From assembly GCA_046563655.1 (NCBI GenBank), contig CM102289.1:7564001-7628000 (forward strand): a stretch of DNA of 64,000 nt, given 5' to 3'. The notes under the pieces were generated by a model. That model had not been told where the DNA came from. It did no database searches and was given only the letters and a program-made list of their open reading frames with translations. Shown here piece after piece: positions 3,025 through 62,466 of this stretch; the stretch's first letter is position 1; each line of letters opens with the position of its first letter. The position numbers and the translations under genes were made by a program. Origin of the DNA: Yuukianura sp. NJ FZ-2021. Its lineage: Eukaryota.

Positions 3025-6000
3025 TTATTGTTCAAGGAGTTTCTGCATGGCGTTAAGGCTTGCTTCAAGCGCCGTTGCAAATTTAATTGTTGATGTGATT
3101 GGAGATGACTTGAATGAGGAGAGACAGAAGATGATTGATTCTTCCATGGGATTGTATGAAGCTCCATATCCATTCGGCACCACAGGTCCGTAGCCCATGA
3201 ACTGATTTTCTTTTGTTGGTAACTTTTCAAAAAAATAGTTTTTAAACAAAAACTTAAAATTTTGGTTTTGGTGCTTCAGGACTTACCTGGCTGGTTGAGA
3301 GAGCAAAGTAGTTGGCAATTGCAAACGTTTCATCTTGAAAAAGTTTTGGAACTTCTATGCCCATTTCAATTGCCTGTTCTTTGAGTCCTAGCAAATGAAT
3401 GTCAATTCCTTCTCCAGTGATGTTTTCAACCATAATCGTCGTTTGCTTTTCTACGGCTGCGTGGAATTTCCGGATTTGTTCGGTAGAGTCCGTTGTACTT
3501 GCGGTTTTGTGCATAGATTTGACCCAGTCGAGAGCTTCAATTGTGGTGGATCGGATGCAGTCTACGCGTCCAAGTTTGTAGCGACGTGTCGAGGCACTCT
3601 CGTAGGTAGCAACCATATTTTGGTGTATACTGCACGTAATCAAGGAAAAAGTAAAGCTGAAAAAGTAATTTTTAATTTTTTTGAAACAATTTTTGAAAAA
3701 ATTACCTATAATATGTAAGTTGCAAAGCAAGTTGAATGTAAACGTCTGGACTAACGCGACATTTTTTGATAAAGTTTTTCCCATAGCCGTCGTAGCGATA
3801 GACGGCCAAATCCAGATCGTGAATTAGACTGCAACGCAAAATGGAAAAAAAAAGTTCAATTTTGAAATTTGGAGATTGAAATTTCGAATTCAACACCGTC
3901 TATCCAATTTGTCATTTTTCTGTAAATTTTAATTTCCATTAGTTTAGTTGTTTCGCACCTGTCAATCGTAGATGCTGCTTTTGCAATAGCTTCTCTCGCT
4001 TCATTATTCAGAACCCACTCTAAACGAATCGGTTTTGAAATTTCTTCGCTCGATTTTCTCGTTTTTTCGACGTCATTCGATGTTTCTGTTTTAGTATCGG
4101 CCGACTCCCTGACAGACCGAATAAATTCGTCCACCAAGTTCAGAATTCCGATGCCCTCAGCAGTGGAATGTTCATAGCACAGGCCAATCGCACCGTCGGA
4201 CGATACGATAAACTAAATTCGAAAAACAAAGGAATTATAAAAAAAGGTTGATGCTTCAGTTTAGTTTTTAGTAAGAAGATTCGTTTTTGTATAACCTGCA
4301 TCGTTTTATCAAACCATCTATTGGGCGTGTTATAGTTACTCCCTCCGCCATGAATCATTTGATGCAACATGCTAGTTTCATCTCTTCCATTTTCCTGAAT
4401 CCTTAAACAATTTTTTCTAGTTGGTTTTAGCTTGCTATTGAACTGTTGAGCCGGAATGGGTTCATCGAGACAGACAATGAAGTGACAAGTTTCTATTTCC
4501 TCCAATGATTGTTTATTTACTTCCTCTAAAATGTTAAAATTTTTACAAGAAATTAAAGAAATTGACGAAATGAAGACCTAATTGTACCTGAGAACAAAAT
4601 TATGAGTGAAAATTACATACCTTCTAGTAAAATTTTTCGTGCGGCGGCCCAAACTCGTCTATCTTGAGTCGTAAGAACTCCCACAGGCTCTTCACTGTCA
4701 GCCGCTTCCAGGTCAACGATGGCTTGAAACTGACTAGCAATTTCAGATATTGTAAGACGCCTATTCACAGTTCGAATTGGACAACTAAAAAACTAAAAAC
4801 AGTTCTTGTTTTACTTTTTCCAAAGATTTCAAAATGTGTAGCTTTTGCCATTTTGCTCAAGTATGTGGATGATCATATCTTACATGTTTGCGGTATGCAA
4901 CGATGATATGATCTACAAGTGACATTGAAGTATCTCGTTGGTGATCTTTTGGAATTCCTGGTACACGATATGTACTCATGAGGCGGTAGTGTTGAGCCAT
5001 ACACAGTGGTTGACCTGGCTCCCTGCTAGCAGCTTTCTCCACTGGAATTTCATTTCTAAAAAAAAGTTCATAAAATTTTATTTACGAAAAAGTTTTCATT
5101 TAAAACAATGAACAAAAATCAACTATTTAAATCTTCAACCCGAACATTTTTACAAAGTTTTTAGGAATAAACTTGGTTGATCAAACTCAATTTTTGCTGT
5201 GGGAGCATAGAAAATTTGGGTTCCAGGAGTTTTCCTATTTTTAGTTTTGCTAATTTGAAAATCTTTTCAGTTATTCTATGAATGCCGAAATCTTTCAGGT
5301 GCCAATTAATTAACTCAAAATTTGGAATTCGAAGAAAAGTTTTCTCCGAGATTTTCGTTTTCCTTGAAATGAAGTTTTAGAACAAAAAGCAGGATGTGAA
5401 AATACCGACTTTCTTCCGTGAGAAGAACTCCCGGGAGATTTAAATGTAAATCCAAGACGAGGAGAAATAAGATCTCGTTTGTGCCGAAAAGACTCGGAAG
5501 ATCTTTGCATAAGAATAAGTTGACATAATCAGATTAGTAACTTTGGGAAGATTCCTGGACGTGTTGCGTAGGGAGAGACCGAGAATTTGTCATTGTCTCC
5601 CAGAAACAAAAGATTTCCTGCTACTTTTAGTAGATTTTATCCAATTCCAGAAGGAGCCTAACTCGAGTTTTCTGTATTCCTGGGATACCTCATCCTCCAC
5701 CGGGAAATTCAAAGATCCCGAAGTATAAGATGCAAAAGGGGGAAGAAATTGTAGATTCACCGGGACGAATCGGAAAGAGTTCCCGTGGGAATTGGGCTTA
5801 AGATCACTTCAGCCTAAGCCTCAGCTTTCTCCTCCTAACAAACCGAACTCCTAACCCTAACTTTCTCCATTCCCTACGCTAGGCTAGGTTACTAACATAA
5901 CCTTTCGACCTCACAACCAGTCGAAATGGATTAGACTGTTCCCTCTTCAGCTTCTGGGAAATGGGGATCAGCAAGTCCCCCGCCAAAAGTCAAATTGGAC

Positions 6001-22497: not shown

Positions 22498-24282
22498 CTA
22501 ATTGGACCTAAATGGGTTCCCACCTTCTCCGCCCCCACCCGATGGCGGCATATTTTTGAACGGGTTGAAAGTATTTTGATCTGAACTATTGGAATAGTTA
22601 GGTTGGGCGTGGTGTTGCGCCTGTGTGTAGTGGGAACTAGTACTGGAAGGCCCATTGGCTTTGATTGTATTAATTTCTCGATCACTAATACTCGTTTCCT
22701 TGAACGTCACCCGCTGACCCCCACCTCCCCCGCCCCCAAACTCATCTTCATCATCTTCTGCTCCCAGTCTTCCATATTTCTTGGAATAGTCAGGAACTAC
22801 TTTCCGATCCTGCATGGCATACGTTTGATAAGTTTTGTCTGGTGGATCCTTCATCATAATGTTAGCTTCATCCATGAAGCCTTTGTCATAGATGTGACGG
22901 AGCATGAACAGAAGAGGGACATAGGCTAAGTTAGTCACTGCAATGATGATATTTAGTCCTAGAAATCCTACTGATTCAATTACTCTTCCAGCAATTACCG
23001 GTCCAAATGCATATGCAAACGAGTAGGAAATGTCTGCAATGGCATAGATACTTCCATAAACGGAAACATACCGTAAGTCAACCAAGTAGCCCAGAGTAGG
23101 AAGCAGGGCCGTATCGACCAGAGCAATGCCAAAACAAATTCCTGAAATGGGAATGATGAGAACCCAATAGGATTTGGCAAAGGGGACCATAAGGGAACAG
23201 ACCCCTTCAAGGGCCAGTCCTGCTCCGGCAATAATCCACTGATACTGGGGATACTGCGCAGCAGTTCTCACGGTCACGACGACTCCAAGTACATGTGGAA
23301 AGAACGCTGGAAACCAAATCATGCCTTGTTGCCACTGTGTTGCATTCATTGTATCCATCATCCAGACACTAATTGTAGGTTCCAGGAATGCTAGAGAGAC
23401 GTTGGCCATAATAAGGGCTCCGGAACAAACGGCAATGTAAGGGTCCATGAACAGGACCCATATGGGGGTACCCTTAGGATGCTGAATTCCTTGCTCTTTT
23501 TGCTGTTTCTTGATGGGTCTCATCACAAGCCAGAGCATGATGCCGTCAATGAGGCAAACGAGAGACAAAATTAAAAATGGAACTTCTTTTCCCGCCATTT
23601 CGTACATGAGACCTCCGAATGGTGGCGCCACTAGACAGCCAAATGAAATGAAGGCAAGGGCTATGCCAAGGGCTTTGGATCTCTCAGCTTCTTCTGTATA
23701 AACTGAAGCTATCATGGCCAGTCCAGAAGTGTCAGCAAATGCTGATCCCACCCCTTGAAGACTTCGGGCAAAAAATAAGACGCTATAAGATGAACCAATG
23801 GCAAAAACGGCTGTTGAGAAGAACATAATTGTTAAACCAATCATCATCGGTTTGTCGTAGCCAATTCGATCAATTAATGCCCCCGAAAATGGATTAATCA
23901 TCAACTGAATCATGGCTTTCGATGCAAATAGAACTCCAATTGCAGCATCTTCCCCCTCATAAACTGTTACACCATTGATGAGTTTAGTTTTTCTAGATCC
24001 TTCTGTGTAAGTAAAATTCCCAGTTGAATTTGTAAATGTTATGGTTCTCGATGGTTCAGTAACGGCTTCTCCTCCTTCCAAATGTGTTTCCCATGAACCG
24101 ATCCTGCGCAGATAGTCGGGTATAATCGGAACAATGACCATGTAGAGCATGTTGTCCAACAATAAAGCAATTGCGACTATGACCAAAACCAATTTTTTCT
24201 GGGCCGTTTGATCTTCCAGTTTAGTCAAAATGAAATCCTTGACCTCCGCGATCTCCAAATTCAAAATAGGAACTTGCGGCAT
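22498..24282 (-). CDS. VAChT: vesicular acetylcholine transporter (SLC18A3, MFS), single coding exon
   Basis: 594-aa uninterrupted ORF with ALLLDNMLYMVIVPIIP, FASKAM.QL..NPFSG..IDRIGY, ARSLQGVGSAFADTSG, YVSVYGSIYAIADISYS. Lies upstream of the ChAT coding exons on the same strand. Confidence 0.97.
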   Translation of the reverse strand: MPQVPILNLEIAEVKDFILTKLEDQTAQKKLVLVIVAIALLLDNMLYMVIVPIIPDYLRRIGSWETHLEGGEAVTEPSRTITFTNSTGNFTYTEGSRKTKLINGVTVYEGEDAAIGVLFASKAMIQLMINPFSGALIDRIGYDKPMMIGLTIMFFSTAVFAIGSSYSVLFFARSLQGVGSAFADTSGLAMIASVYTEEAERSKALGIALAFISFGCLVAPPFGGLMYEMAGKEVPFLILSLVCLIDGIMLWLVMRPIKKQQKEQGIQHPKGTPIWVLFMDPYIAVCSGALIMANVSLAFLEPTISVWMMDTMNATQWQQGMIWFPAFFPHVLGVVVTVRTAAQYPQYQWIIAGAGLALEGVCSLMVPFAKSYWVLIIPISGICFGIALVDTALLPTLGYLVDLRYVSVYGSIYAIADISYSFAYAFGPVIAGRVIESVGFLGLNIIIAVTNLAYVPLLFMLRHIYDKGFMDEANIMMKDPPDKTYQTYAMQDRKVVPDYSKKYGRLGAEDDEDEFGGGGGGGQRVTFKETSISDREINTIKANGPSSTSSHYTQAQHHAQPNYSNSSDQNTFNPFKNMPPSGGGGEGGNPFRSN

Positions 24283-34960: not shown

Positions 34961-35561
34961 TCAGCACGGTACGCTCCGGCCCGGTTGTGCTAGCTGCGTT
35001 TCTTCAGTCTCAGATTGCTCAGCTGCGATTGCGCCGATTCTCGTAGTGCAAAATGGACATCGAGCTGCCTGTTTGGAAATAATACTGGTGCATTCCGGAC
35101 ATGGCCGATTGAGGGCTTCGTGTGCTCTCGTGAAAGTGTCAAAAACCCACTCTGATGGAACAACCACAACGTAGTAGAGGATGAACGCCGTAAGCACAAA
35201 GGCAAACAGAGCGTCGACGAAGGCGCCGTACCGGAACTCGCTGTGATTTATAGTGAATGAGTACGAGGTAAAGTTCGGTTGTGTTCCAAAAACTCCGAGA
35301 ATCGGTGTGATGAGACCCGTTGTAAAAGATGTTACTAAATTTGAAAAAGATGCTCCAATAACTACTGCAACTGCCAACTGGATCAAGTTCCCGCGAAATA
35401 GAAACTCGCGAAATCCTTGCATCTAAATTCAAAAATTCAAAATTAGAGTAAGAAGTCAATAGTTTACGTGTTTTTGAAAGAAATTGAAAATTTACCTTTA
35501 GTTTTTTAGCGACAGTTGCTAGATGCAACTTGGTATTGGCGTCTTTGATCATGGAATTCAT
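34961..35561 (-). CDS. mscL: large-conductance mechanosensitive channel MscL, bacterial type, with C-terminal CxxC-x10-CxxC motif; two exons
   Basis: Exon 2 35422-34961: FREFLFRGNLIQLAVAVVIGASFSNLVTSFT..LITP, TM2 YGAFVDALFAFVLTAFILYYVVVVP, tail CPEC-x10-CPFC. Its ATG directly follows TTTTGAATTTAG. Donor AAG|GTAAAT at 35495. Exon 1 35561-35496 adds 22 in-frame codons. AATAAA at 34747-34742. Confidence 0.88.
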
Positions 35562-51010: not shown

Positions 51011-51625
51011 TTAGCAGAAGATGATACGCAGTCCAGGATTTCCAGGTCGGCAGTCCCTCATTCCCGCTTGGTCGTCTTTGGACCACGAATAAACCCCGGG
51101 GCAATATCTCTTAATAGCGTCCGAGTACGGGGTTGGTGCATCCCTGTTGAGACTTTGACAAGCTACAAACAATCCCTTATTGTACACTCTGTTTTCTCCA
51201 GGACAGGCATTAAGATCGAAAAAGCAACTGGGAGTGTTGCAATTTCCACCGGCATTGGGGTTGTAAGGTTCCATGGTTACTGGAATATTGTAACCATCAA
51301 CCATGCTGATGTCGAACCAATTCCAACCATCCAGGTCCCAGCCGAACTCTGCTAAGCTGACAGTACCTTCCCAAGTATCGCAATTTCCGCCGCCAGCATC
51401 ACATCCCATGTGAGCCCATACCCTGCTACGGTGAGATCCTGGTCCACCTCGGTTTACACCAATGGCTCCGCTCGTTTGTCCCCTGCCAAGCCAAAAGTGA
51501 CCGGAATTAATGAATTCGCTTTTGACGTAAATATCCCACTGGCAGTTGTTACGAATAGTGACTTCTTCGGCTAATATTTCCAGTAGAAGTGCAGAGAGAA
51601 CGGAGACTACAATGATCAATTTCAT
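51011..51625 (-). CDS. secreted thaumatin-like (PR-5) protein, 10 Cys, intronless
   Basis: Signal peptide, TIRNNC, SRVWAHMGC, VSLAEF, WFDISMVDGYNIPV, CPGVYSWSKDD, terminal IIFC. TCAGT at ~51665, AATAAA at 51004-50999. Confidence 0.92.
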   Translation of the reverse strand: MKLIIVVSVLSALLLEILAEEVTIRNNCQWDIYVKSEFINSGHFWLGRGQTSGAIGVNRGGPGSHRSRVWAHMGCDAGGGNCDTWEGTVSLAEFGWDLDGWNWFDISMVDGYNIPVTMEPYNPNAGGNCNTPSCFFDLNACPGENRVYNKGLFVACQSLNRDAPTPYSDAIKRYCPGVYSWSKDDQAGMRDCRPGNPGLRIIFC

Positions 51626-53093
51626 TTTCGCAAAATATTTTAGCTTTACGTAAACAATTTACTGAGTGGAGACTCTGGAAAGTTTTTAAACCATTTTAAG
51701 CAAAAGTATTTTGGTTCTGCTCTTAGATAACAATAATAACATCATCAGGGCTGCAAAAAATATTTTCTTGAATGTTAGATATTTATATTTCTTGGAACAG
51801 CAGTTTGTCATTGTAAAAAATAGATACATATTCTTTTTTGTCGAAAATGTCTGGCGCTTTTTAAAAGATGAGTTATATTTTTATGCATATTTAGCCGTTT
51901 TTGAATTTCAAATAAAAATTTAGCATTCTTGGTAATTTTTTTTGGCTCGCCGGTAACGATTTCATCACAGTGCTTTTGTTTGAACCGGGGCGCCAACAGA
52001 ACCTATTTTTGAATATTTTATATTATTATAATAAAATAAAATAAAGGCTAACTATGCTATACTAAAATTTCTGGCTAAACGGAAAGTTTCAGCTGATAAA
52101 TACACAAACGTCAACTAAATTTGTGTGACTGTAAGTTAAATTTTTGTAAATATTGGCTTGGTTAGTAAATATGTTGTTAATTTACAATAATTGCCGTTGG
52201 TATTTCCTGTTTTTTTATTAAATGTCTCAAAATAATTTTTGGGTTTTAGTAAATACTTTGTGCAGCGCTGATTATTACTGCTGCACAGGTGTTATCATTT
52301 TGACCAAGATTAAGTGCTTATTGTCGTAGGCATTTATCCAGACCGCTAAACTATTTTTCCACTTTAGTTACCATGAATTAGCTATGCCGAATTTCGCCAA
52401 TTTTCTTAGAATTGTTTTGCAGCAGAACTGTAAACAATTTCAATATACGTACCGTAAAACTTCTAATAAAGACACGTACGTTTATTTAAAATTTTAGATG
52501 TTGAGATGAGATTCAATGTCAGAGCCTTGTAACCTTGATCTTGCTGACAACAAATCCACTTGAAATGCTCAAATCCTGGGAAAGTACTGAATTTTGGTAA
52601 TTTTAAAAGTACTTGGCACTTGATATTTTTTGAGATTAGAAACACGCTCCAAAGAAGTAATCTCAATTTTGATGACAAACAATCCACTTCAAGATTCAAC
52701 TGATGGAAAAGTACTAATTTTTTTTTAGTACTTGGTAATTCTGCTCGAAAATTTGATCTTCATTTTTTTAAAAATATAGCTTATCTTCTAAAAATCCAAA
52801 ATCTTCCCACCTTTCCATCCAGCCAATATGGCGCACTACTCAATTTCGTATCGCAAAATCGCAGTTTCAATGTCAATTATAAATCAATCAACCGATAACT
52901 ATTATATTTTAAAAATTAATTGTAGAGTTGGAAAGTGTGATTACTTAAGAGGCTGTCAATCATGAAACAATTAGTTGATATCACAAAAATTGACGTCAAT
53001 TGTCATGCTCTCTAACCAAGCATTTCTCATATATAAATCTGCAAACTGCAACAGAATTAAGTGTGCTAATTACCGTTTTCAAGAAAACTAAAC

Positions 53094-54055
53094 ATGAAGC
53101 TTTTCCTTGCTTTTCTCTTGATTGCTGGAGCAGCAGGTAATAATCCTAAGCAGTTGCTAATCGAGAGAGTGCCGCTCCACTCCGAGCAGTAATAAAACCC
53201 AAGTGGGGCTCCGCTCGCGAGCAAAGAGCGGACCGCTTTTATCTTCGCTCTCAAAGGAGCGGGTGCTCTCTCAATTTGCAGCAACTGAGATCCTAAGAAT
53301 TCAGAAAATAACGATTGATTATTTTTTTTGTAGCAAAATACGAGGGACCCACAAACCAAGCAGGTCTAGACTTGATCAAGTATTTTGAAGGATTTTACCC
53401 CGACTTCTACACTGATCCCGTTGGCATCACAACCATTGGTTATGGGCATGCCTGTCACGTCAACGATTGCTCAGTGCCACTAAACGGGAAGTACTGGGTA
53501 CCGCTAACCCTAGCTGATGGTGAATCTCTGTTACAAGATGACCTTGCAAGCGGATATGAGGATTGTGTCGCAAATTATGTTACATACAGTGGCTTAAATG
53601 CTGACCAGTTCTCAGCTCTTGTCTCGTTCACTTTTAACCTCGGCTGTGGAAGTTTGCAAACTTCGTCTCTCGTTGACTATCTAAACGCTGGAGATGTTCA
53701 AAGAGCATCAACCGAATTTGGGCGATGGGTGTATGCTGGAGGAGATATCTTACCTGGCCTCGTGACAAGGCGAGCGGAAGAAAATATCTTATTTTGCAAA
53801 GGCACTTGCATTGAGTATTGTACTGGCACAACTACTGATCCTTTGAACATGAGAACACAACCAGACACTACTGCCCCAGTTGTAGCGACTATACCTGCAG
53901 GTTGGACTATCATCATTACTGGAAGAGTGCAAGGAGACGTAATCAACGGTAACAGTAACTGGTTCAAGCTGCAGTATGGAAGTTCAACTGGATATGTTTC
54001 GGCTTACTATGCTAACATGAAGCACAATAATGGACAGTCCTACTGCGCCAAATAA
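53094..54055 (+). CDS. secreted GH24 (phage-type) lysozyme with C-terminal bacterial SH3 (SH3b) domain
   Basis: Exon 53094-53136 (MKLFLAFLLIAGAA), intron 53137-53333, exon 53334-54055. LIKYFEG..YTDPVGITTIGYGH (E-x8-D-x5-T intact), QFSALVSFTFNLG, GLVTRRAEE, then LNMRTQP..WFKLQY..GYVSAYY. TATATAAA at 53030. Confidence 0.92.
53151..53289. mobile_element. ~140-bp MITE in the lysozyme intron, hAT-like 8-bp direct repeat
   Basis: CAGTTGCT..GAGAGAG..CCGCTCC mirrored by GGAGCGG..CTCTCTC..AGCAACTG. ATCCTAAG at 53143-53150 and 53290-53297. Confidence 0.75.
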
Positions 54056-55225
54056 AAACCAAAAATAGGAAAACTATGAAAATATTAACAATTTAAAAAT
54101 TAAATTGAATAAATCGGTTAATCTGTTCTTCGCATTACAAAAATTTTTTTCTAATCCACTTTTTAACACCCTTTTTTAAATTATAGGAATTTTTAAAAAT
54201 GAGGCAACGATTGTTAAGAAAAAACGAACGGTACGTACTCTGTTGAGATGTTGGTGAAAGTATGAATGCCTTTCTCCTAAAAGAATCCGCAAGCAAAGCT
54301 GCTAGGCGGCGTTTTGGTTACGGGTTTTAAATGTTAGATTTAAAACTCAAAAGTGACTTAATTTTTACTCAACTTAAAAAAAAACAAATGTAGATTAACA
54401 TTTTCGAATTCAAGGAAAATTTTTATACAACTAAAATAAAGTTTGTTGTAATAAAAAATAATTTTTCGTGAATATGACATTGCTCTAACTTTTGGCAGTT
54501 GGCTTAAGTGGCATGAGAAAAGCTGTGACTAAAACTTTTTCAATGTGTCAAAAATTTTGACACAGAATTACGCATTGTGAGTGTAGTTGAATATAAGACT
54601 TAGTACATAAAAACGTAATTCGTTTTCCCATTTTCAACTGGCCGCATAATTCAATTCTAGTTTTGATTTTGATGGACTTTCATAATTCACATTTAAAAGA
54701 AAGTTACCTTGCTAAAAGGAAATTACTCGTCTGGGTCAAAGTGGACTGCAGATCACTGTCTTTTGGAATTTACATGCGCAGGAGAGGCCTTGAAGGCGTC
54801 CTAAACCAGCATTTGTGAACTGAATTGACTGCTTTGGAGAAAGACATCATCCGCCTCATCTTGACTTTCTTCCAGATCTCATCCATCCCCATTCCAACTC
54901 TAATGTAACAGGAAGACGCTCAACGTTCAAGTGTTTGTCTTCAAGTGTTGGTGTTTTGCAGGGCTTTTTCAAAAGAGACAAAAATCTATTTGACGACGAC
55001 TGTAAGCCTTTTATTAAAATTCATTTCCATGGTGGAACACAGCGTGACACAGCTTTGACAGAGCATTTTAAAGAAAAAATTTTCATTTTCGGAAATTCCA
55101 CCAAATCTCAACATTTACAAAATGAAACGCAGCTTTCCTAAAATTTGAAGTTTGAAGTGTTTTATATTTTGTGTAGTACGGAGTTGAGGCTGAAAAATTA
55201 GAAAGTTTTAACTTTGAAAAAATAA

Positions 55226-58495: not shown

Positions 58496-58864
58496 CCATA
58501 AAAAGGAAATAAAACCAATAGTACAACTCACGGTTACTTTTTATTGAACATTTGGAACATGAAAAAATAAGTTAATGGACTTTGGTCAACAATTCAACTC
58601 AACTTAACTCAACAATTTACTGGAAATACTGGGAACATTGGAAACCACCATACAACAATCAGTGACTACGGATACAACAGCTGATCAGAGACAAGTGACT
58701 GCCTGATTGCATAGTCAGTTCTTGCTCTCTGCGGAATCAACAGACTTATCAATTACAGATACGTTTATGACTAATACGTCAAAAACAAATCCAGTATTGG
58801 TACCATGAAATACTGCCAAATTATTTTCTAACTTACAGATTACCAATTAACAATATTAGCACTG

Positions 58865-59608
58865 ATGAGCTCAAACCAACCAGCCAAAACAAGAGGAACG
58901 AAACGGAAATCCGAATTAGAAATTTCGCAATCAACCAAAGTTACCAAAATGACAGAAGCAGATCTAGCTCCTGTACTGGCCGCCATCAACAAACTGAGCG
59001 ACAGAATGGACCGCAATCACATTGAGCTTACGAACCAAATACAGTCAATCAAGACAGATATCACGACACTCCAAACCAAAGTGAATGAAGTAGAGGCCAC
59101 CAACAAACAGATCAGTCACCACCTAAGTAGTCACGACCGTGAGATCGAAACGATTCTAATCAACTTGAATAAATCAAACCTCATACTACACGGGCTACAA
59201 CACTCTGCGGGAGAGTCAACCGAATCGATTACTGCTCAAATAAAAGAGATTCTGCAAAATTCGCTACAAATTGACCTCACTAGCGAAATTCAGCATGCTC
59301 ACCGTCTGGGTCGACCCACCGCTCAAAATCCAAACAAACCAATTAAAATAATGTTCAAATCGCTGGACACCAGGAATACTGTCTGGAGAAATCGAATGCG
59401 TGTCAAACAATCATTTCCAACTCTCAGCATCAATCAAGATCTCCCACCTGTCACCAGGAAAAAGTTAGCAGCCAAACGACAGAACCTAACTAACAATGCT
59501 GACGAACAAAACAGCCCCAACGTCAACACTCCAGCCCAGAATACGACATTCGCTCGAAACCCCGGCTTCGCACGCAGCAGTATGACCCCACGATCACCGC
59601 CATTGTGA
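58865..59608 (+). CDS. LINE ORF1 (coiled coil + RRM-like)
   Basis: Heptad-rich N-terminal half, then NLILHGL, AHRLGR, KPIKIMF, INQDLP motifs typical of L1/L2/CR1 ORF1 proteins. Confidence 0.85.
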   Translation: MSSNQPAKTRGTKRKSELEISQSTKVTKMTEADLAPVLAAINKLSDRMDRNHIELTNQIQSIKTDITTLQTKVNEVEATNKQISHHLSSHDREIETILINLNKSNLILHGLQHSAGESTESITAQIKEILQNSLQIDLTSEIQHAHRLGRPTAQNPNKPIKIMFKSLDTRNTVWRNRMRVKQSFPTLSINQDLPPVTRKKLAAKRQNLTNNADEQNSPNVNTPAQNTTFARNPGFARSSMTPRSPPL

Positions 59609-62466
59609 CAACCAGCTACCACACCACGTCAAAAGGTCAAGTATGAGCTTACCATAGCTCAATTGAACATTCGCTCCTATTCAAAAAAATTCCCCGAAGT
59701 GTGTGATCTACTAAATATTCAAAATATCGACATCCTATGCTTATGTGAAACCTGGCTTACACCAAGCGTCACGGCAATCGTTCCTCCCGGATACTCCATG
59801 TACAGAAACGATCGAATTCACAAAAGAGGAGGAGGAGTGTGCATAATTGTAAAAAACTTGTTCAAAATTCTAAAAATTTCAAAATCAACGCCAGGCCCAG
59901 ATCACCACATCGAACATATTACAATCAAACTACAGATCAATTTCAACAAAAGCATAACAGTTACATGCCTGTATCGGCCACCAGCAAGATCCGGAACTCT
60001 AATCAGAAACGACATTTCATTCATTTGTAAACTAATTCAAGAAATAAACGAGACAAATTGCTCATCTTACATGGCTGGAGACTTTAATTTTCTTCCCGGT
60101 AGTGAGTACAACGATTTCAAACGCTCCTTCCAGATTCATTCCATCAGTCAACTAGTCACAATACCAACACGTGGTCAAAACATATTAGACTTATTTCTCA
60201 CTAACAATAGTTCAGAGGTGGCAACATGCGATGTAATCGACTGTGACTTATCTGACCATTCTCTCGTTCTCGCAAAAATCAAATCACAACGAATTCAAGT
60301 GGAGCCGAAACAAATTCAATACAGAAACTTTGCAAACATAAACATGGAGAAATTAGCTACACAAGTTATTTTGATCCCAGACACCACAGGAATAAATGAC
60401 CTTGATTCCAAATTGTCTCACTTCAAGTCATCTCTGGTTAGCGTATTCTCCAGCCTAGCACCTACGAAAACAAAATTCATACGAGAAAACCGGTTAAATT
60501 GCTACTTATCCGAACGTACCCGTGACCTCATCAAAAAGAAGAACAACCTCATAAAGAACGACCGAAATTCGTTATTCTATGTACAAAAACTAAAAGCAAT
60601 GAAACGACTCGTTCAAACTGCAGTGAAACGAGAGACAACAAACTATTTTAACGATCTAACCAACAGGAATGGAATCCACGATGCAGTCAATAGATTTTGT
60701 AAACTAACAAAGAAAAAATCAAACCCACCAGCACCAACAATAGACGCAGAAGAAATCAACAACTATTTAATACAAATCAGTACCAAATCAACTGCGTCAA
60801 CACTCTATGAAAAACCGGTTAGCATCTTGACACCTCCTGAGGCAATATCATTCAAAATCAACAGCTACGATGTCATCAAAGCATGGAAAGCTGCAAAAAA
60901 GAAGAAATCAAAATCGATGGACACAATGGAAGTATGTCCGTACATGATCGAGCTTACACTTCGGGCACCGAATATTCTGGATAGCATCACGGACATTATT
61001 AATGAAAGTTTTCGCAAGGGCTATGTCCCTGAACCTCTAAAATTAGCCAAAGTGATTCCATTGCCAAAATGTGACAATCCAAAATCTGCCAGTGAATTTC
61101 GCCCAATCTCCATCCTTCCTGTCGTCTCAAAAATAATGGAAAAATGTGCATTTGAAAAAATAACGCATCATCTTACTAAGTACAACCTCCTCCACCAAAA
61201 CCAATTCGGTTTTCGGAAAGGTCACTCCACTACGCAGGCGCAGATTGCACTTACAGACTTACTCTACAACTCATTTCACCAAAATAAAATCTGTGCAGTG
61301 GTAACATTGGATCTAACCAAAGCCTTCGACACAGTAGACCGCGAAACTTTGATACACAAAACAAAATGGTATGGACTCGAGAACCAGTGGCTCCAATCCT
61401 ACTTATCGTGTCGCAAACAATATGTACTCAGCCAGAACAAAAAGTCGACAACACAGGAATTCACTTTAGGAACTCCGCAAGGTGGAATTTTGTCGCCACT
61501 TCTCTTCAGCATTATGGTGAATGACTTGCTCTCGTCTTTCAATCAACTTTTTCCTGAAATTTTGATCATGTTTGCGGACGACAACTCCATCATCATCAAG
61601 GGCGACCCCAACTTACTGTTCCAGTTTAAGTCTGATGTAGAAAAATGTGTAAATTTTGTGATACAATGGATGAAATCAAATCTCCTCTACATAAACAAAA
61701 GGAAAACTTCAATTCTACTGTGCGCAAAACCCAAAATTCTCCAGAGCATTGGGCAAATTACATTTGACATTGATGGTGAACAAACAGCAACAGTGAATTC
61801 GTTAAAAACTCTTGGACTGACGATCGATTCTCAACTCAGATGGGACACTCATATAAACACAGTTGCAAAACGGTGTTTTGGCATCATCGCTTCTCTCTAT
61901 CCACTTCAACGCTACCTCGACTTAATCAACCGAAAAATCCTGATGGAGTCATACGTACTCTCAAAAGTCACGTACATGTCAGAAATTTGGGGACAAAGTA
62001 AAAAGAAATACCTCAAACCAATGGAAAAAGTGATAAGATCTGCAGGAGATTCACTTTAAGCGTCAAAAAGTTCGATCATGTCAAGCTAGAAATTACTAAG
62101 AAGTTACAATGGCTATTCCCTAAGCATCTAACCGATTACCGGCGTCTACTTCTAGCAAAAGGAATAGTTGCTATGAATTGTCCAAAATACTTCGAGGGGT
62201 ACTTCGACGAGATAGAATCACGCAAAAAGAAAATCGTCACCAGAAAACATACACACACCAGCGTCATGCCAAACAGCGCTAATCATCCGCTCTCCTTCAA
62301 AACATCTGCAGTCAGCAAATGGGAAAACTTACCAGAAGATCTCAAAAATGAAGCGAACTCGCATAAGTTCAAAGTAAAGATTAAGAAGTACTTCCTCACA
62401 AAACAGGAAATGGAAGCGGAAGCCAAGGAAAATTCAGACGATCATCACCTCTCAGAGCAAGATTAA
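59609..62466 (+). CDS. LINE ORF2 (AP endonuclease + reverse transcriptase), one frameshift near 62047
   Basis: LNIRS, LCETWL, GGGV, YRPP, GDFN, LDL, SDH (endonuclease); FRPISILP, QFGFR, LDLTKAFDTV, GTPQGGILSPLLF, FADD (RT). After ~62047 the protein continues in another frame (RFTLSVKKFDHV..LQWL) to the stop at 62466. Confidence 0.9.

What the first reader, a model, noticed from the sequence alone, without database searches (positions are those of the whole stretch)
53094..54055. Phage-endolysin architecture (GH24 + SH3b) refitted with a signal-peptide exon
Seen: intact E-x8-D-x5-T triad, a C-terminal SH3b, added Cys residues, and the only intron separating the signal peptide from the mature enzyme. 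Known: typical animal lysozymes are c-, g- or i-type, while GH24 and SH3b are phage/bacterial and also occur in some fungi. Inference: HGT followed by capture of a secretion exon. As in MscL, the intron sits at the host/foreign junction.
Basis: partly seen in the sequence, partly recalled or inferred. Interest (0 to 1): 0.7.

Follow-up and report, generated by a model that had tools for sequence, protein, structure and literature searches.

The report
Springtail secreted lysozyme of fungal type
This is an intact two-exon animal gene for a secreted bacterial-cell-wall-cutting enzyme that springtails took over long ago, most likely from the fungal branch of a phage-type lysozyme family, so it is real but belongs to a gene family already listed as foreign in springtails.

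Summary
Window 53094-54055 (+) is a two-exon gene. Exon 1 encodes a 14-residue signal-peptide-like leader. A 197-nt GT-AG phase-1 intron follows. Exon 2 encodes a GH24 muramidase domain (Pfam 2.8e-37) with an intact Glu-x8-Asp-x5-Thr triad, then a C-terminal SH3b domain (6.7e-11). The host is an arthropod, most likely a springtail.

The gene is not a fresh phage capture. It belongs to a family found in four named springtail species and two fungus gnats (56-62% identity). One member is already in the Orchesella cincta foreign-gene tables.

Both domains look fungal rather than phage-like. The "added" cysteines are shared with secreted fungal GH24 enzymes and absent from bacteria. The SH3b carries an 8-residue loop insertion and a terminal Cys seen only in the fungal N-terminal cell-wall-binding domain. 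The closest solved structure for both domains is Trichophaea saccata CWBD-GH24. Module order is reversed relative to fungi.

Fungal relatives already have signal peptides, so exon capture is unnecessary and unshown. The leader intron is conserved in two related genomic loci. Twenty of 23 listed coding variants are synonymous. No RNA data exist.

The parts
53030..53037 (+). TATA-like box (TATATAAA), 64 nt upstream of the ATG
   Evidence: Read by eye; not tested further.
53094..53136 (+). Exon 1: start codon, 14-residue hydrophobic leader (signal-peptide-like, Ala at -3 and -1 of the inferred cleavage site), plus the first base of a split Ala codon
   Evidence: sequence. Colinear with the leaders of 22 relatives in alignment A2 and with N-termini. 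The signal peptide is judged by eye; no predictor was run.
53137..53333 (+). The only intron, 197 nt, GT..AG, phase 1, at the leader/mature-protein junction
   Evidence: Phase-1 introns lie within two codons of the same place in related genomic loci L001 and L002.
53143..53297 (.). MITE-like insertion inside the intron: a 139-nt hairpin element (53151-53289) flanked by the 8-bp direct repeat ATCCTAAG (53143-50 and 53290-97). Without it the intron would be 50 nt.
   Evidence: Repeats. RNA fold -63.2 kcal/mol, z -5.16, 0 of 200 shuffles as stable. No Rfam match. No second copy in the window. Present in DNA contigs of both organisms laid.
53334..54055 (+). Exon 2: the whole mature enzyme (239 aa, P0001 = 53336-54052) and stop codon TAA
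53378..53782 (+). GH24 (phage-type lysozyme) catalytic domain with E18 (53387-89), D27 (53414-16) and T33 (53432-34)
   Evidence: Pfam PF00959 2.8e-37. PHROG 7 endolysin 1.4e-45. PDB 8b2s 1e-41. Foldseek top hit 8b2s, 45% identity.
53783..53842 (+). Cys-rich linker (L-F-C-x-G-x-C ... C-x-G). The tail motif is shared with SH3-less springtail and fungal GH24s.
   Evidence: Alignments.
53843..54052 (+). [quoted passage not shown]
   Evidence: Pfam PF08239 6.7e-11. Matches the T. saccata CWBD. Foldseek 8b2f rmsd 1.4 A and 8b2g rmsd 1.6 A. The loop insertion is shared with fungal CWBDs.
54108..54113 (+). Candidate polyadenylation signal AATAAA (another overlaps the stop codon at 54051-56)
   Evidence: Read by eye; untested.

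Best explanation
A nuclear gene of a springtail-like arthropod encodes a secreted muramidase.

How it works (inferred):
- The exon-1 leader directs the protein into the secretory pathway and is cleaved just before K-Y-E-G-P.
- The GH24 domain, with Glu18 as general acid plus Asp27 and Thr33, cuts the MurNAc-GlcNAc bond of peptidoglycan.
- The C-terminal SH3-like domain holds the enzyme on insoluble bacterial cell wall and raises its activity there. This was measured for the fungal homologue, not here.
- Eight conserved cysteines probably form disulfides that stabilise it outside the cell.
- The likely role is digestion of, or defence against, soil bacteria in gut or body fluid.

Origin:
- The gene is one member of a family present across springtails, so it was acquired before their radiation.
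- It was acquired from the eukaryote-adapted, fungal-type branch of GH24 that already combined a signal peptide, the cysteine pattern and this SH3-like domain.
- The module order has since been reversed: fungi have leader-SH3-GH24, springtails leader-GH24-SH3.
- Fungus gnats (Sciaridae) appear to have obtained their copies from within the springtail family.
- The leader intron is old within the family. In this copy it was later enlarged by a MITE-like hairpin insertion.

Shown versus inferred:
- Shown: gene anatomy, domain identity, family membership, shared sequence characters, and a synonymous-biased variant pattern.
- Inferred: secretion, activity, binding, disulfides, physiological role, donor and direction of transfer.
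For: Anatomy and domains.

Animal context, not contamination:
- Choline/carnitine acyltransferase, the VAChT-type transporter, 7TM receptors, carbonic anhydrases and a LINE reverse transcriptase lie on the same 64 kb.
- The VAChT ORF is 76% identical to Allacma fusca; the next named hits, at 60-70%, are crustaceans, horseshoe crabs, a tick and insects.
- Gene GC 45.3% and GC3 41.4%, against 44.6% and 42.8% for VAChT.
- DNA contigs of two organisms from two studies cover the locus, including the intron.

Family:
- Best hits at 56-62% full-length identity are unnamed ~1-kb contigs, Orchesella dallaii, Allacma fusca and the sciarids Bradysia and Pseudolycoriella. Glomeromycotina GH24 is 60-63% identical over the catalytic domain, cyanobacteria about 50%.
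- All 1300 matching phage records are under 60%, with the best listed about 45%.

GH24 tree (71 rows):
- Springtail-type clade of 24 rows, support 94/84.
- Subclade of 17 rows, support 84/93, holding the 16 rows that carry the SH3 domain plus P0023, in which none was found.

Full-length tree (29 rows):
- The sciarids nest inside a 23-row clade (95/93*) that excludes the query and O. dallaii.
- An AU test of sciarids placed outside gives p 0.034.

Fungal-type characters:
- Cys at G-Y-G-H-A-C-x4-C, F-E-x-C-V, N-L-G-C-G and L-F-C, plus the C-x2-G-x-C tail, are shared with Rhizophagus, Basidiobolus and Cetraspora and absent from Nodosilinea, Microcoleus and three endolysin-like proteins.
- A scan of 185,579 prokaryote species genomes with the peptide patterns T-I-G-Y-G-H-A-C and L-I-K-x-x-E-G-x-x gave 21 stretches and 7 relatives. 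None had G-Y-G-H-[AS]-C.

SH3 domain:
- ML tree: arthropod C-terminal domains (20 rows) are sister to fungal N-terminal domains (10 rows, 100/97*), with joint support 94/87 and bacterial ones outside.
- The 8-residue loop insertion and terminal Cys are shared by 5 of 5 arthropod and 5 of 5 fungal rows and by 0 of 5 bacterial rows shown.
- The closest solved structures for both domains are T. saccata 8b2s and 8b2f.

Function of the fungal homologue (PMC10394673, passages and tables seen):
- OD-drop 0.50 with the CWBD, 0.17 without it.
- The CWBD binds M. lysodeikticus cells.

Constraint: 20 of 23 listed coding differences among the laid DNA contigs are synonymous.

Precedent: the O. cincta gene Ocin01_13999, with best hit Rhizophagus and phi29 lysozyme, appears in that paper's supplementary Table S7 (GO-enrichment sequence descriptions). 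I read that table as its foreign-gene analysis, since the text cites S7 for the HGT genes and names lysozyme among them.
Against: - No RNA evidence for this gene in this organism, so transcription, the splice junction and secretion are inferred.
- Deep GH24 branches are unresolved. In one search the springtail clade's nearest neighbour changes with the method and none is starred, so a bacterial donor is not excluded.
- The AU test does not reject grouping the arthropod SH3 domains with bacterial endolysin C-terminal SH3 domains (p 0.186).
- Profile-profile scores do not discriminate: fungal 1.6e-14, endolysin 2.2e-13, bacterial repeats 1.5e-16.
- The bacterial SH3b sample was only what a full-length query pulled in, so a closer bacterial SH3b could exist. 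The SH3-only search found nothing.
- On the GH24 domain alone, the nesting of sciarids is not significant (p 0.172). The p 0.034 test used a group named after the tree was seen.
- Module order is the opposite of the fungal enzymes, and the two CWBD disulfides reported as conserved in fungi are not kept.
- The direction of transfer, fungus to animal or the reverse, is not shown.
- In one search, 77 further differences were not listed, and some contigs may be paralogues.
Confidence: 0.7

Rival explanations
1. A phage or bacterial GH24-SH3b endolysin entered the animal genome as one unit. It then acquired cysteines and a host exon encoding a signal peptide, with the intron marking the host/foreign junction.
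For: - The domain order (catalytic domain first, SH3b last) matches bacterial or phage-like proteins P0221, P0245 and P0173 and the Roseburia phage Jekyll endolysin (33% identity over residues 8-211).
- PHROG 7 endolysin scores 1.4e-45.
- The AU test cannot reject arthropod and endolysin SH3 domains as one clade (p 0.186).
- Deep GH24 nodes are unresolved.
- The intron does sit exactly between leader and mature enzyme.
Against: - The cysteine pattern and tail are shared with fungal secreted GH24s, not unique to animals.
- The SH3 loop insertion and terminal Cys are shared only with fungal CWBDs.
- Identity to fungal GH24 (60-63%) exceeds that to any phage (at most about 45%) or listed bacterium (about 50%).
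- The best solved match for both domains is fungal.
- Fungal and SH3-less springtail relatives already have leaders.
- SH3-less springtail paralogues branch outside the SH3-bearing clade. This suggests the SH3 was added to an already resident, already secreted gene.
Confidence: 0.15
2. Vertical inheritance. A secreted GH24 was present in an early opisthokont and was lost in almost all animals, surviving in springtails, oribatid mites, sciarids and many fungi.
For: The Cys-bearing GH24 type occurs in several fungal phyla (PMC10394673 Table 3). One representative, P0135, comes from the holozoan flagellate Pigoraptor.
Against: - Among the 120 best of 675 hits, the only animals are springtails (7 rows), sciarids (2) and oribatid mites (4).
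- Mites form a separate clade (99/93*) that is not sister to springtails.
- Sciarids nest inside springtail diversity rather than branching with other insects.
- The same three-taxon distribution is reported for other transferred genes (PMC11665903; PMC13389597 cluster 3).
Confidence: 0.07
3. The gene is a silent or decaying relic, or an assembly contaminant, with no present function.
For: - No RNA run holds the stretch (one search gives no evidence either way).
- The query has a long branch, 0.61 against a median of 0.13.
- The intron has taken up a mobile-element-like insertion.
Against: - The ORF is intact and the triad and 8 of 8 family cysteines are kept.
- 20 of 23 listed coding variants are synonymous.
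- There is a spliceosomal intron with canonical ends.
- Composition matches the host and animal genes flank it on both sides.
- The locus was recovered in contigs from two studies.
Confidence: 0.05

Closest known systems
Springtail and sciarid GH24-SH3b proteins. Database entries are named 'SH3b domain-containing protein' (Orchesella dallaii, Allacma fusca), 'Endolysin' (Pseudolycoriella hygida) and an uncharacterised LOC (Bradysia coprophila). The SH3-less paralogues include 'lysozyme RrrD' of Folsomia candida and 'Lysozyme, partial' of O. cincta. The O. cincta gene Ocin01_13999 is in that genome paper's supplementary Table S7.
   Same: - Leader, then Y-x-G-P-T-N-Q-A-G.
- The V-P-L-N-G-K-Y insertion.
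- Eight conserved Cys.
- A C-terminal SH3 domain ending in C-A-K.
- 56-62% identity over the full length.
- The query lies inside this clade in every tree.
   Different: - This copy is comparatively divergent (long branch).
- It has a 4-residue insertion (Q-Y-G-S) in the SH3 domain and Y instead of W before the last Cys.
- It lacks the second intron (after D-P-V) seen in the two related genomic loci.
- None of these proteins has been characterised, as far as my searches show.
Fungal CWBD-GH24 muramidases, type Trichophaea saccata TsCWBD-GH24 (PDB 8b2s; CWBD alone 8b2f; Moroz et al. 2023, PMC10394673)
   Same: [quoted passage not shown]
- It is the best solved match for both domains: 1e-41 by sequence, and Foldseek rank 1 for GH24 with 1.4 A rmsd for the SH3.
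- The Cys pattern in the GH24 domain is shared with the fungal relatives aligned here.
- The SH3 loop insertion and C-terminal Cys are shared.
- Probably the same mode of action: binding raises activity on whole cell walls.
   Different: - Module order is reversed. The CWBD is N-terminal in fungi (12 of 12 SH3-before-GH24 proteins are of this type, or are unnamed) and C-terminal here.
- The two CWBD disulfides described as conserved in fungi (Cys9-Cys53, Cys33-Cys72) are not kept. Only the last Cys position is.
- There is an extra V-P-L-N-G-K-Y insertion.
- The host is an animal and the gene has an intron.
Phage and bacterial GH24 endolysins with a C-terminal SH3b (for example the Roseburia phage Jekyll endolysin, and unnamed proteins P0221, P0245 and P0173); GH24 endolysins generally (phage 21 R21, P22, Acinetobacter prophage 6et6)
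   Same: Same catalytic fold and triad, and the same catalytic-then-binding module order.
   Different: - At most about 45% identity, and 33% where both domains align.
- No signal peptide of the eukaryotic kind.
- None of the shared cysteines and no SH3 loop insertion.
- Encoded in lysis cassettes, not between animal genes.
Other horizontally acquired animal lysozymes: the phage-type lysozyme of bivalves (Ren et al. 2017, PMC5303276; search listing and abstract only) and the GH25 muramidase transfers (Metcalf et al. 2014; seen only as a reference-list entry, content recalled)
   Same: Antibacterial cell-wall hydrolases of phage or bacterial type, domesticated in animal genomes.
   Different: These are separate acquisitions in other phyla or another GH family. 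No SH3-like module is reported in what I saw.

Membership tests
GH24 / Pfam PF00959 phage-type lysozyme | Sequence match to the family profile above the curated threshold | tested here: met
   128.3 bits against a cut-off of 22.3, full-length profile 1-125. PHROG 7 endolysin 1.4e-45.
GH24 / Pfam PF00959 phage-type lysozyme | Catalytic Glu-x8-Asp-x5-Thr triad | tested here: met
   E18, D27 and T33 are present. T33 is invariant, and E18 and D27 are at least 90% conserved in A1 and A2. The definition of the triad is recalled knowledge of T4/P22-type lysozymes.
GH24 / Pfam PF00959 phage-type lysozyme | Lysozyme-like alpha/beta fold | tested here: met
   AlphaFold2 model with mean pLDDT 83. Foldseek probability 1.00 to 8b2s, 6et6, 9kbq, 3hde and 2anv. 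The loop at residues 38-48 is of low confidence.
GH24 / Pfam PF00959 phage-type lysozyme | Muramidase activity | not testable with these tools
   Needs an enzyme assay.
Springtail/sciarid leader-GH24-SH3b family | Leader, the Y-x-G-P-T-N start, the V-P-L-N-G-K-Y insertion, eight conserved Cys, a C-terminal SH3 ending in Cys, and placement inside the clade | tested here: met
   Alignment A2 of 23 sequences. Trees place the query inside: the 25-row clade has support 99/96*, and the 26-row SH3-bearing clade is split from the outgroup with 96/96*.
Fungal CWBD-GH24 muramidases (TsCWBD-GH24 type) | GH24 catalytic domain of the Cys-bearing eukaryotic type | tested here: met
   8b2s E 1e-41. Shared Cys positions.
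Fungal CWBD-GH24 muramidases (TsCWBD-GH24 type) | SH3-like CWBD homologous to TsCWBD | tested here: met
   Domain match to residues 6-65 of 8b2s (19.1 bits). 8b2f rmsd 1.4 A over 61 columns. ML sister group with support 94/87. Shared loop insertion. The AU test is not decisive.
Fungal CWBD-GH24 muramidases (TsCWBD-GH24 type) | CWBD placed N-terminal to the catalytic domain | tested here: not met
   Here, and in all 37 arthropod-type proteins with an SH3 hit, the domain is C-terminal.
Fungal CWBD-GH24 muramidases (TsCWBD-GH24 type) | Two CWBD disulfides, Cys9-Cys53 and Cys33-Cys72, said to be conserved in all examples (PMC10394673) | tested here: not met
   In the query the positions aligned to Cys9, Cys33 and Cys53 are not Cys. 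Only the C-terminal Cys is kept, and a different Cys precedes the domain.
Phage/bacterial endolysin (GH24 + C-terminal SH3b) | Catalytic-then-SH3b module order | tested here: met
Phage/bacterial endolysin (GH24 + C-terminal SH3b) | Closest relatives are phage or bacterial; encoded in a phage or prophage lysis context | tested here: not met
   All 1300 matching phage records are under 60% identity. The closest relatives are arthropod and fungal. The neighbours are animal genes.
Canonical animal lysozymes (c-, g-, i-type) | Match to those families' profiles | tested here: not met
   The Pfam scan at E up to 0.1 returned only PF00959, PF08239 and PF06347.

The most novel reading that the evidence does not exclude
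The springtail enzyme may be a circularly rearranged descendant of a fungal leader-CWBD-GH24 gene. After transfer, the cell-wall-binding module would have been moved from the N- to the C-terminus, for example by tandem duplication and fusion, or by joining an SH3-less resident copy to the CWBD of a second fungal-type copy. On this reading the conserved phase-1 intron right after the leader is the scar of that rearrangement. The finished module arrangement would then itself have been passed between soil arthropods (springtails to fungus gnats). That would make it a two-step inter-kingdom, then intra-phylum, transfer of an antibacterial effector.
Probability: 0.2. Interest if true: 0.55.

Novelty: new member of a known kind. 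Interest (0 to 1): 0.35.

Why it matters
Springtails are known for many foreign genes, and a GH24 lysozyme is already in the Orchesella cincta foreign-gene tables. The existence of this gene is therefore not surprising.

This analysis adds four points:
- The animal family is of the fungal secreted type in both domains.
- Its cell-wall-binding module sits at the opposite end from the characterised fungal enzymes.
- The leader intron is shared by family members.
- The fungus-gnat copies seem to derive from springtail ones. This fits the springtail, mite and fungus-gnat gene-exchange pattern reported for terpene synthases and P450s.

If the enzyme is active, it is a natural test of whether the position of the binding module matters for a muramidase. 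It would also be a candidate gut or immune effector shaping the microbiota of key soil decomposers.

Tried and rejected
- No whole genome is held for the window, so paralogues, other copies of the intron element and synteny could not be examined.
- No RNA holder is listed for the stretch, so the junction 53136/53334 could not be tested. The contigs laid are DNA only.
- The search with the SH3 region alone (residues 158-239) returned nothing. The SH3 comparison therefore rests on 59 of 256 proteins that a full-length query had pulled in.
- The careful tree of 115 rows, chosen from 234 near-complete GH24 domains, did not finish in two runs. I replaced it with 71 rows. That left out 44 rows, including the long-branched P0191, P0156, P0158, P0245 and P0123.
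- AU tests were not significant for sciarid nesting on the GH24 domain alone (p 0.172) or for separating arthropod from endolysin SH3 domains (p 0.186).
- hhalign profile scores did not discriminate between fungal and bacterial SH3 sets.
- Rfam found nothing in 52800-54400 at E up to 1. The intron hairpin therefore matches no Rfam family. No second copy exists in the window, and no laid contig lacks it.
- Cluster 3 of PMC13389597 (springtails, fungus gnats, mites) is not this gene. 'Lysozyme' and 'SH3' occur 0 times in the 12 of 15 supplementary files searched; 3 files were not searched.
- Name look-ups gave organisms for only 3 of the 20 proteins asked about.
- I did not run complex prediction, a second structure job or the protein atlas. 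They would not have changed the reading.
Full report
**1. What is in the sequence**

On the + strand an ATG at 53094 opens a 43-nt exon. It encodes 14 mostly hydrophobic residues (M K L F L A F L L I A G A A) plus the first base of the next codon.

A GT follows at 53137 and an AG ends at 53333. From 53334 a single frame runs to TAA at 54053-55. That frame is open upstream only to 53312 and contains no Met before the mature sequence, so an upstream coding exon is needed.

The exon-2 product (P0001, 239 aa) matches two Pfam families:
- PF00959 Phage_lysozyme: 2.8e-37, 128.3 bits against a threshold of 22.3, residues 15-149.
- PF08239 bacterial SH3: 6.7e-11, residues 170-225.

The Glu-x8-Asp-x5-Thr triad is E18, D27 and T33. 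There are eight cysteines. A TATA-like box (53030-37) and AATAAA signals (54051-56, 54108-13) are visible by eye only.

**2. Whose genome**

The 64 kb also holds the following:
- a choline/carnitine acyltransferase gene;
- a 593-aa vesicular acetylcholine transporter ORF;
- two carbonic anhydrase genes;
- rhodopsin-type receptor genes;
- a thaumatin-family gene;
- an MscL gene;
- a LINE with endonuclease and reverse transcriptase.

The transporter ORF is 76% identical to that of the springtail Allacma fusca and 83-85% identical to unnamed sequences. The next named hits, at 60-70%, are crustaceans, horseshoe crabs, a tick and insects. Earlier notes of this scan on other pieces of the same genome also read it as springtail-like.

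The lysozyme gene's composition (GC 45.3%, GC3 41.4%) equals that of the transporter (44.6%, 42.8%). DNA contigs from two organisms in two studies cover the locus, intron included. Contamination is excluded.

**3. The family**

Of 675 proteins with E at most 0.001, the 120 best were listed.
- The top ones (50-62% identity, full length, same two domains) are unnamed ~1-kb contigs, plus Orchesella dallaii, Allacma fusca and Folsomia candida, and the fungus gnats Bradysia coprophila and Pseudolycoriella hygida.
- Shorter SH3-less relatives occur in Folsomia, both Orchesella species and the oribatid mites Oppiella and Medioppia.
- Then come ten Glomeromycotina entries, Basidiobolus and Macrolepiota.
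- Only then come cyanobacteria, at about 50% over the catalytic domain.
- No other animal appears among the 120.

All full-length relatives have a leader followed by x-Y-x-G-P-T-N-Q-A-G. This is exactly where the window's intron joins leader and enzyme, so homology supports the splice model.

In the alignment of 23 family members, seven of the eight cysteines are invariant and one nearly so. The triad is conserved, except that one Folsomia paralogue has lost the Glu.

**4. Trees**

GH24-domain tree (71 rows, IQ-TREE PMSF):
- The springtail-type sequences form a clade of 24 rows (94/84).
- Within it, a subclade of 17 rows (84/93) holds the 16 SH3-bearing rows and P0023, in which no SH3 was found.
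- The mites form their own clade (99/93*).
- Everything deeper is unresolved, and the nearest neighbour of the springtail clade changes between runs.

Full-length tree (29 rows, rooted on SH3-less springtail paralogues):
- O. dallaii branches first, then an unnamed sequence, then the query.
- A clade of 23 rows (95/93*) follows, containing Folsomia, Allacma and, nested among them, the two sciarids (100/100*).
- Forcing the sciarids outside costs 18.1 log-likelihood units, AU p 0.034 (the group was named after the tree was seen).
- On the GH24 domain alone the same test gives p 0.172.

The fungus-gnat genes therefore probably derive from springtail genes. This matches what has been proposed for sciarid terpene synthases and P450s (PMC11665903, passages seen) and for another gene family shared by springtails, fungus gnats and mites (PMC13389597; that family is not this one).

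**5. Phage endolysin or fungal enzyme?**

Four observations point to the fungal branch.

(a) Shared cysteines. In a 20-sequence alignment, the cysteines of G-Y-G-H-A-C-x4-C, F-E-x-C-V, N-L-G-C-G and L-F-C, and the tail C-x2-G-x-C, are shared by springtail, sciarid, Glomeromycotina and Basidiobolus proteins. The mites share them partly. They are absent from Nodosilinea, Microcoleus and three endolysin-like proteins. A scan of 185,579 prokaryote species genomes with the peptide patterns T-I-G-Y-G-H-A-C and L-I-K-x-x-E-G-x-x gave 21 matching stretches and 7 relatives. None had the Cys motif, and the best was 44% identical.

(b) The SH3 domain.
- The ML tree puts the 20 arthropod C-terminal domains next to the 10 fungal N-terminal domains (joint support 94/87), with bacterial domains outside.
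- An 8-residue loop insertion (T-G-x-x-V-N-G-N type) and a C-terminal Cys are present in all five arthropod and all five fungal rows shown, and in none of the five bacterial rows.

(c) Solved structures. The best solved match for both domains is the Trichophaea saccata muramidase 8b2s. By sequence it scores 1e-41, with its N-terminal SH3-like domain aligning to query residues 169-231. By structure it is Foldseek rank 1 for the catalytic domain at 45% identity, and the isolated fungal SH3-like domains 8b2f and 8b2g fit at 1.4 and 1.6 A (model pLDDT 83).

(d) Phages. Against 50,697 phage records, all 1300 matches are under 60% identical. The best listed are about 45% over the catalytic domain, and the best two-domain match, the Roseburia phage Jekyll endolysin, is 33%.

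Three results weigh against a firm conclusion:
- The AU test does not reject joining arthropod SH3 domains with those of bacterial endolysins (p 0.186).
- Profile-profile scores do not discriminate.
- The bacterial SH3 sample is small, because the SH3-only search failed.

I therefore put the fungal-type origin at roughly 0.6 and a direct bacterial or phage origin at about 0.15.

**6. Reversed modules**

Fungal proteins that have the SH3-like domain carry it before the catalytic domain. The named examples are Cetraspora, Scutellospora, Gigaspora, Racocetra persica, Basidiobolus and T. saccata. The 37 arthropod-type proteins carry it after.

SH3-less springtail paralogues end in the same C-x2-G-x-C tail as Rhizophagus and branch outside the SH3-bearing clade. 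The simplest reading is that a secreted, SH3-less, fungal-type GH24 was resident first and later gained a fungal-type SH3 domain at its C-terminus. A permutation of a leader-SH3-GH24 gene is the alternative. Neither is shown.

**7. The intron**

Two metagenome contigs encode relatives with introns: L001 at 55% identity and L002 at 46%.
- Both have a phase-1 intron in the codon one (L001) or three (L002) places before the conserved Tyr. The window's intron is two places before it.
- Both also share a phase-0 intron after D-P-V that the window gene lacks.
- L002 has a third intron in the SH3 domain.

The leader intron is thus old in the family. Because fungal and SH3-less relatives already have leaders, capture of a host secretion exon is not required. 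Intron gain at the leader junction is an equally good explanation, and the data cannot tell them apart.

In the window, 147 of the intron's 197 nt are a later insertion:
- a 139-nt hairpin (-63.2 kcal/mol, z -5.16);
- 8-nt terminal inverted repeats;
- an 8-bp direct duplication, ATCCTAAG.

This is the signature of a MITE (the type is recalled, not tested). It matches no Rfam family, has no second copy in the window, and is present in both organisms laid.

**8. Is it functional?**

No RNA run is listed, so expression is unknown. Of the 23 differences listed inside the coding exon among the laid DNA contigs, 19 are at third codon positions and 20 are synonymous. The three replacements all lie in the linker or the start of the SH3 domain. 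Another 77 differences across the 1.4-kb stretch were not listed. With the intact frame and the conserved catalytic and Cys residues, this argues for purifying selection.

**9. Mechanism**

By homology with TsCWBD-GH24 (PMC10394673; abstract, passages and Tables 2-3 seen), I expect:
- a secreted muramidase whose SH3-like domain binds cell wall (in the fungal enzyme a triglycine sits in the canonical SH3 groove);
- a roughly three-fold increase in activity on whole cells from that domain (OD-drop 0.50 with it, 0.17 without).

Secretion, activity, binding, disulfides and the physiological role (digestion or defence against soil bacteria) are inferences.

**10. Novelty**

A GH24 lysozyme of O. 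cincta (best hits Rhizophagus and phage phi29 lysozyme) is already in that genome paper's supplementary Table S7, and the paper names lysozyme among its foreign genes (PMC4987106).

Five full-text searches found no paper on the following points:
- these arthropod GH24-SH3b proteins;
- their fungal-type characters;
- the reversed module order;
- the sciarid link.

Supplements I could not see may hold more.

The gene is a new member of a known kind. The added evolutionary detail is of moderate interest.

Noticed in passing
window 53143-53297: MITE-like element inside the lysozyme intron: a 139-nt hairpin, 8-nt terminal inverted repeats (CAGTTGCT / AGCAACTG) and an 8-bp target-site-like duplication. 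It makes up three quarters of the intron and is also present in a second, about 95% identical organism.
   Followed up: partly
window 51014-51658 (-): A thaumatin-family gene (Pfam 1.9e-19) with a leader peptide lies head-to-head with the lysozyme gene, about 1.4 kb away. Two putative secreted antimicrobial-type effectors may share an intergenic control region.
   Followed up: no
window 34964-35422 (-): An MscL-type mechanosensitive channel ORF (Pfam 5.7e-26, profile positions 2-97 of 123) starts at its own Met and has a Cys-rich C-terminal extension. I did not examine it.
   Followed up: no
window 3257-4577 (-) and 22501-24279 (-): A choline acetyltransferase-like gene and an intronless 593-aa vesicular acetylcholine transporter ORF lie on the same strand about 18 kb apart. 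This recalls the animal 'cholinergic locus'.
   Followed up: no
window 58832-62466 (+): A LINE-type retrotransposon with long open frames (endonuclease plus reverse transcriptase, Pfam 6e-35), possibly young.
   Followed up: no
protein P0034 (Folsomia candida): One Folsomia paralogue of the family has Val in place of the catalytic Glu and a deletion in the L-P-G-L-V motif. It may be a non-catalytic, binding-only derivative.
   Followed up: no
protein P0052 (Oppiella nova): An oribatid mite GH24 is fused to an RlpA-like double-psi beta-barrel domain (PF03330) instead of an SH3 domain. This is a different cell-wall-binding solution in a separate arthropod GH24 clade.
   Followed up: no
loci L001 and L002: Two eukaryotic genomic contigs from one metagenome carry family members with two and three introns. 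The intron after D-P-V is shared by both and absent from the window gene, so there has been intron loss or gain within the family.
   Followed up: partly
loci L003 and L004: Metagenome contigs encode Cys-bearing GH24 domains with a longer insertion after the G-Y-G-H-A-C-x4-C motif than the springtail type. This is an unplaced further eukaryote-like lineage.
   Followed up: no
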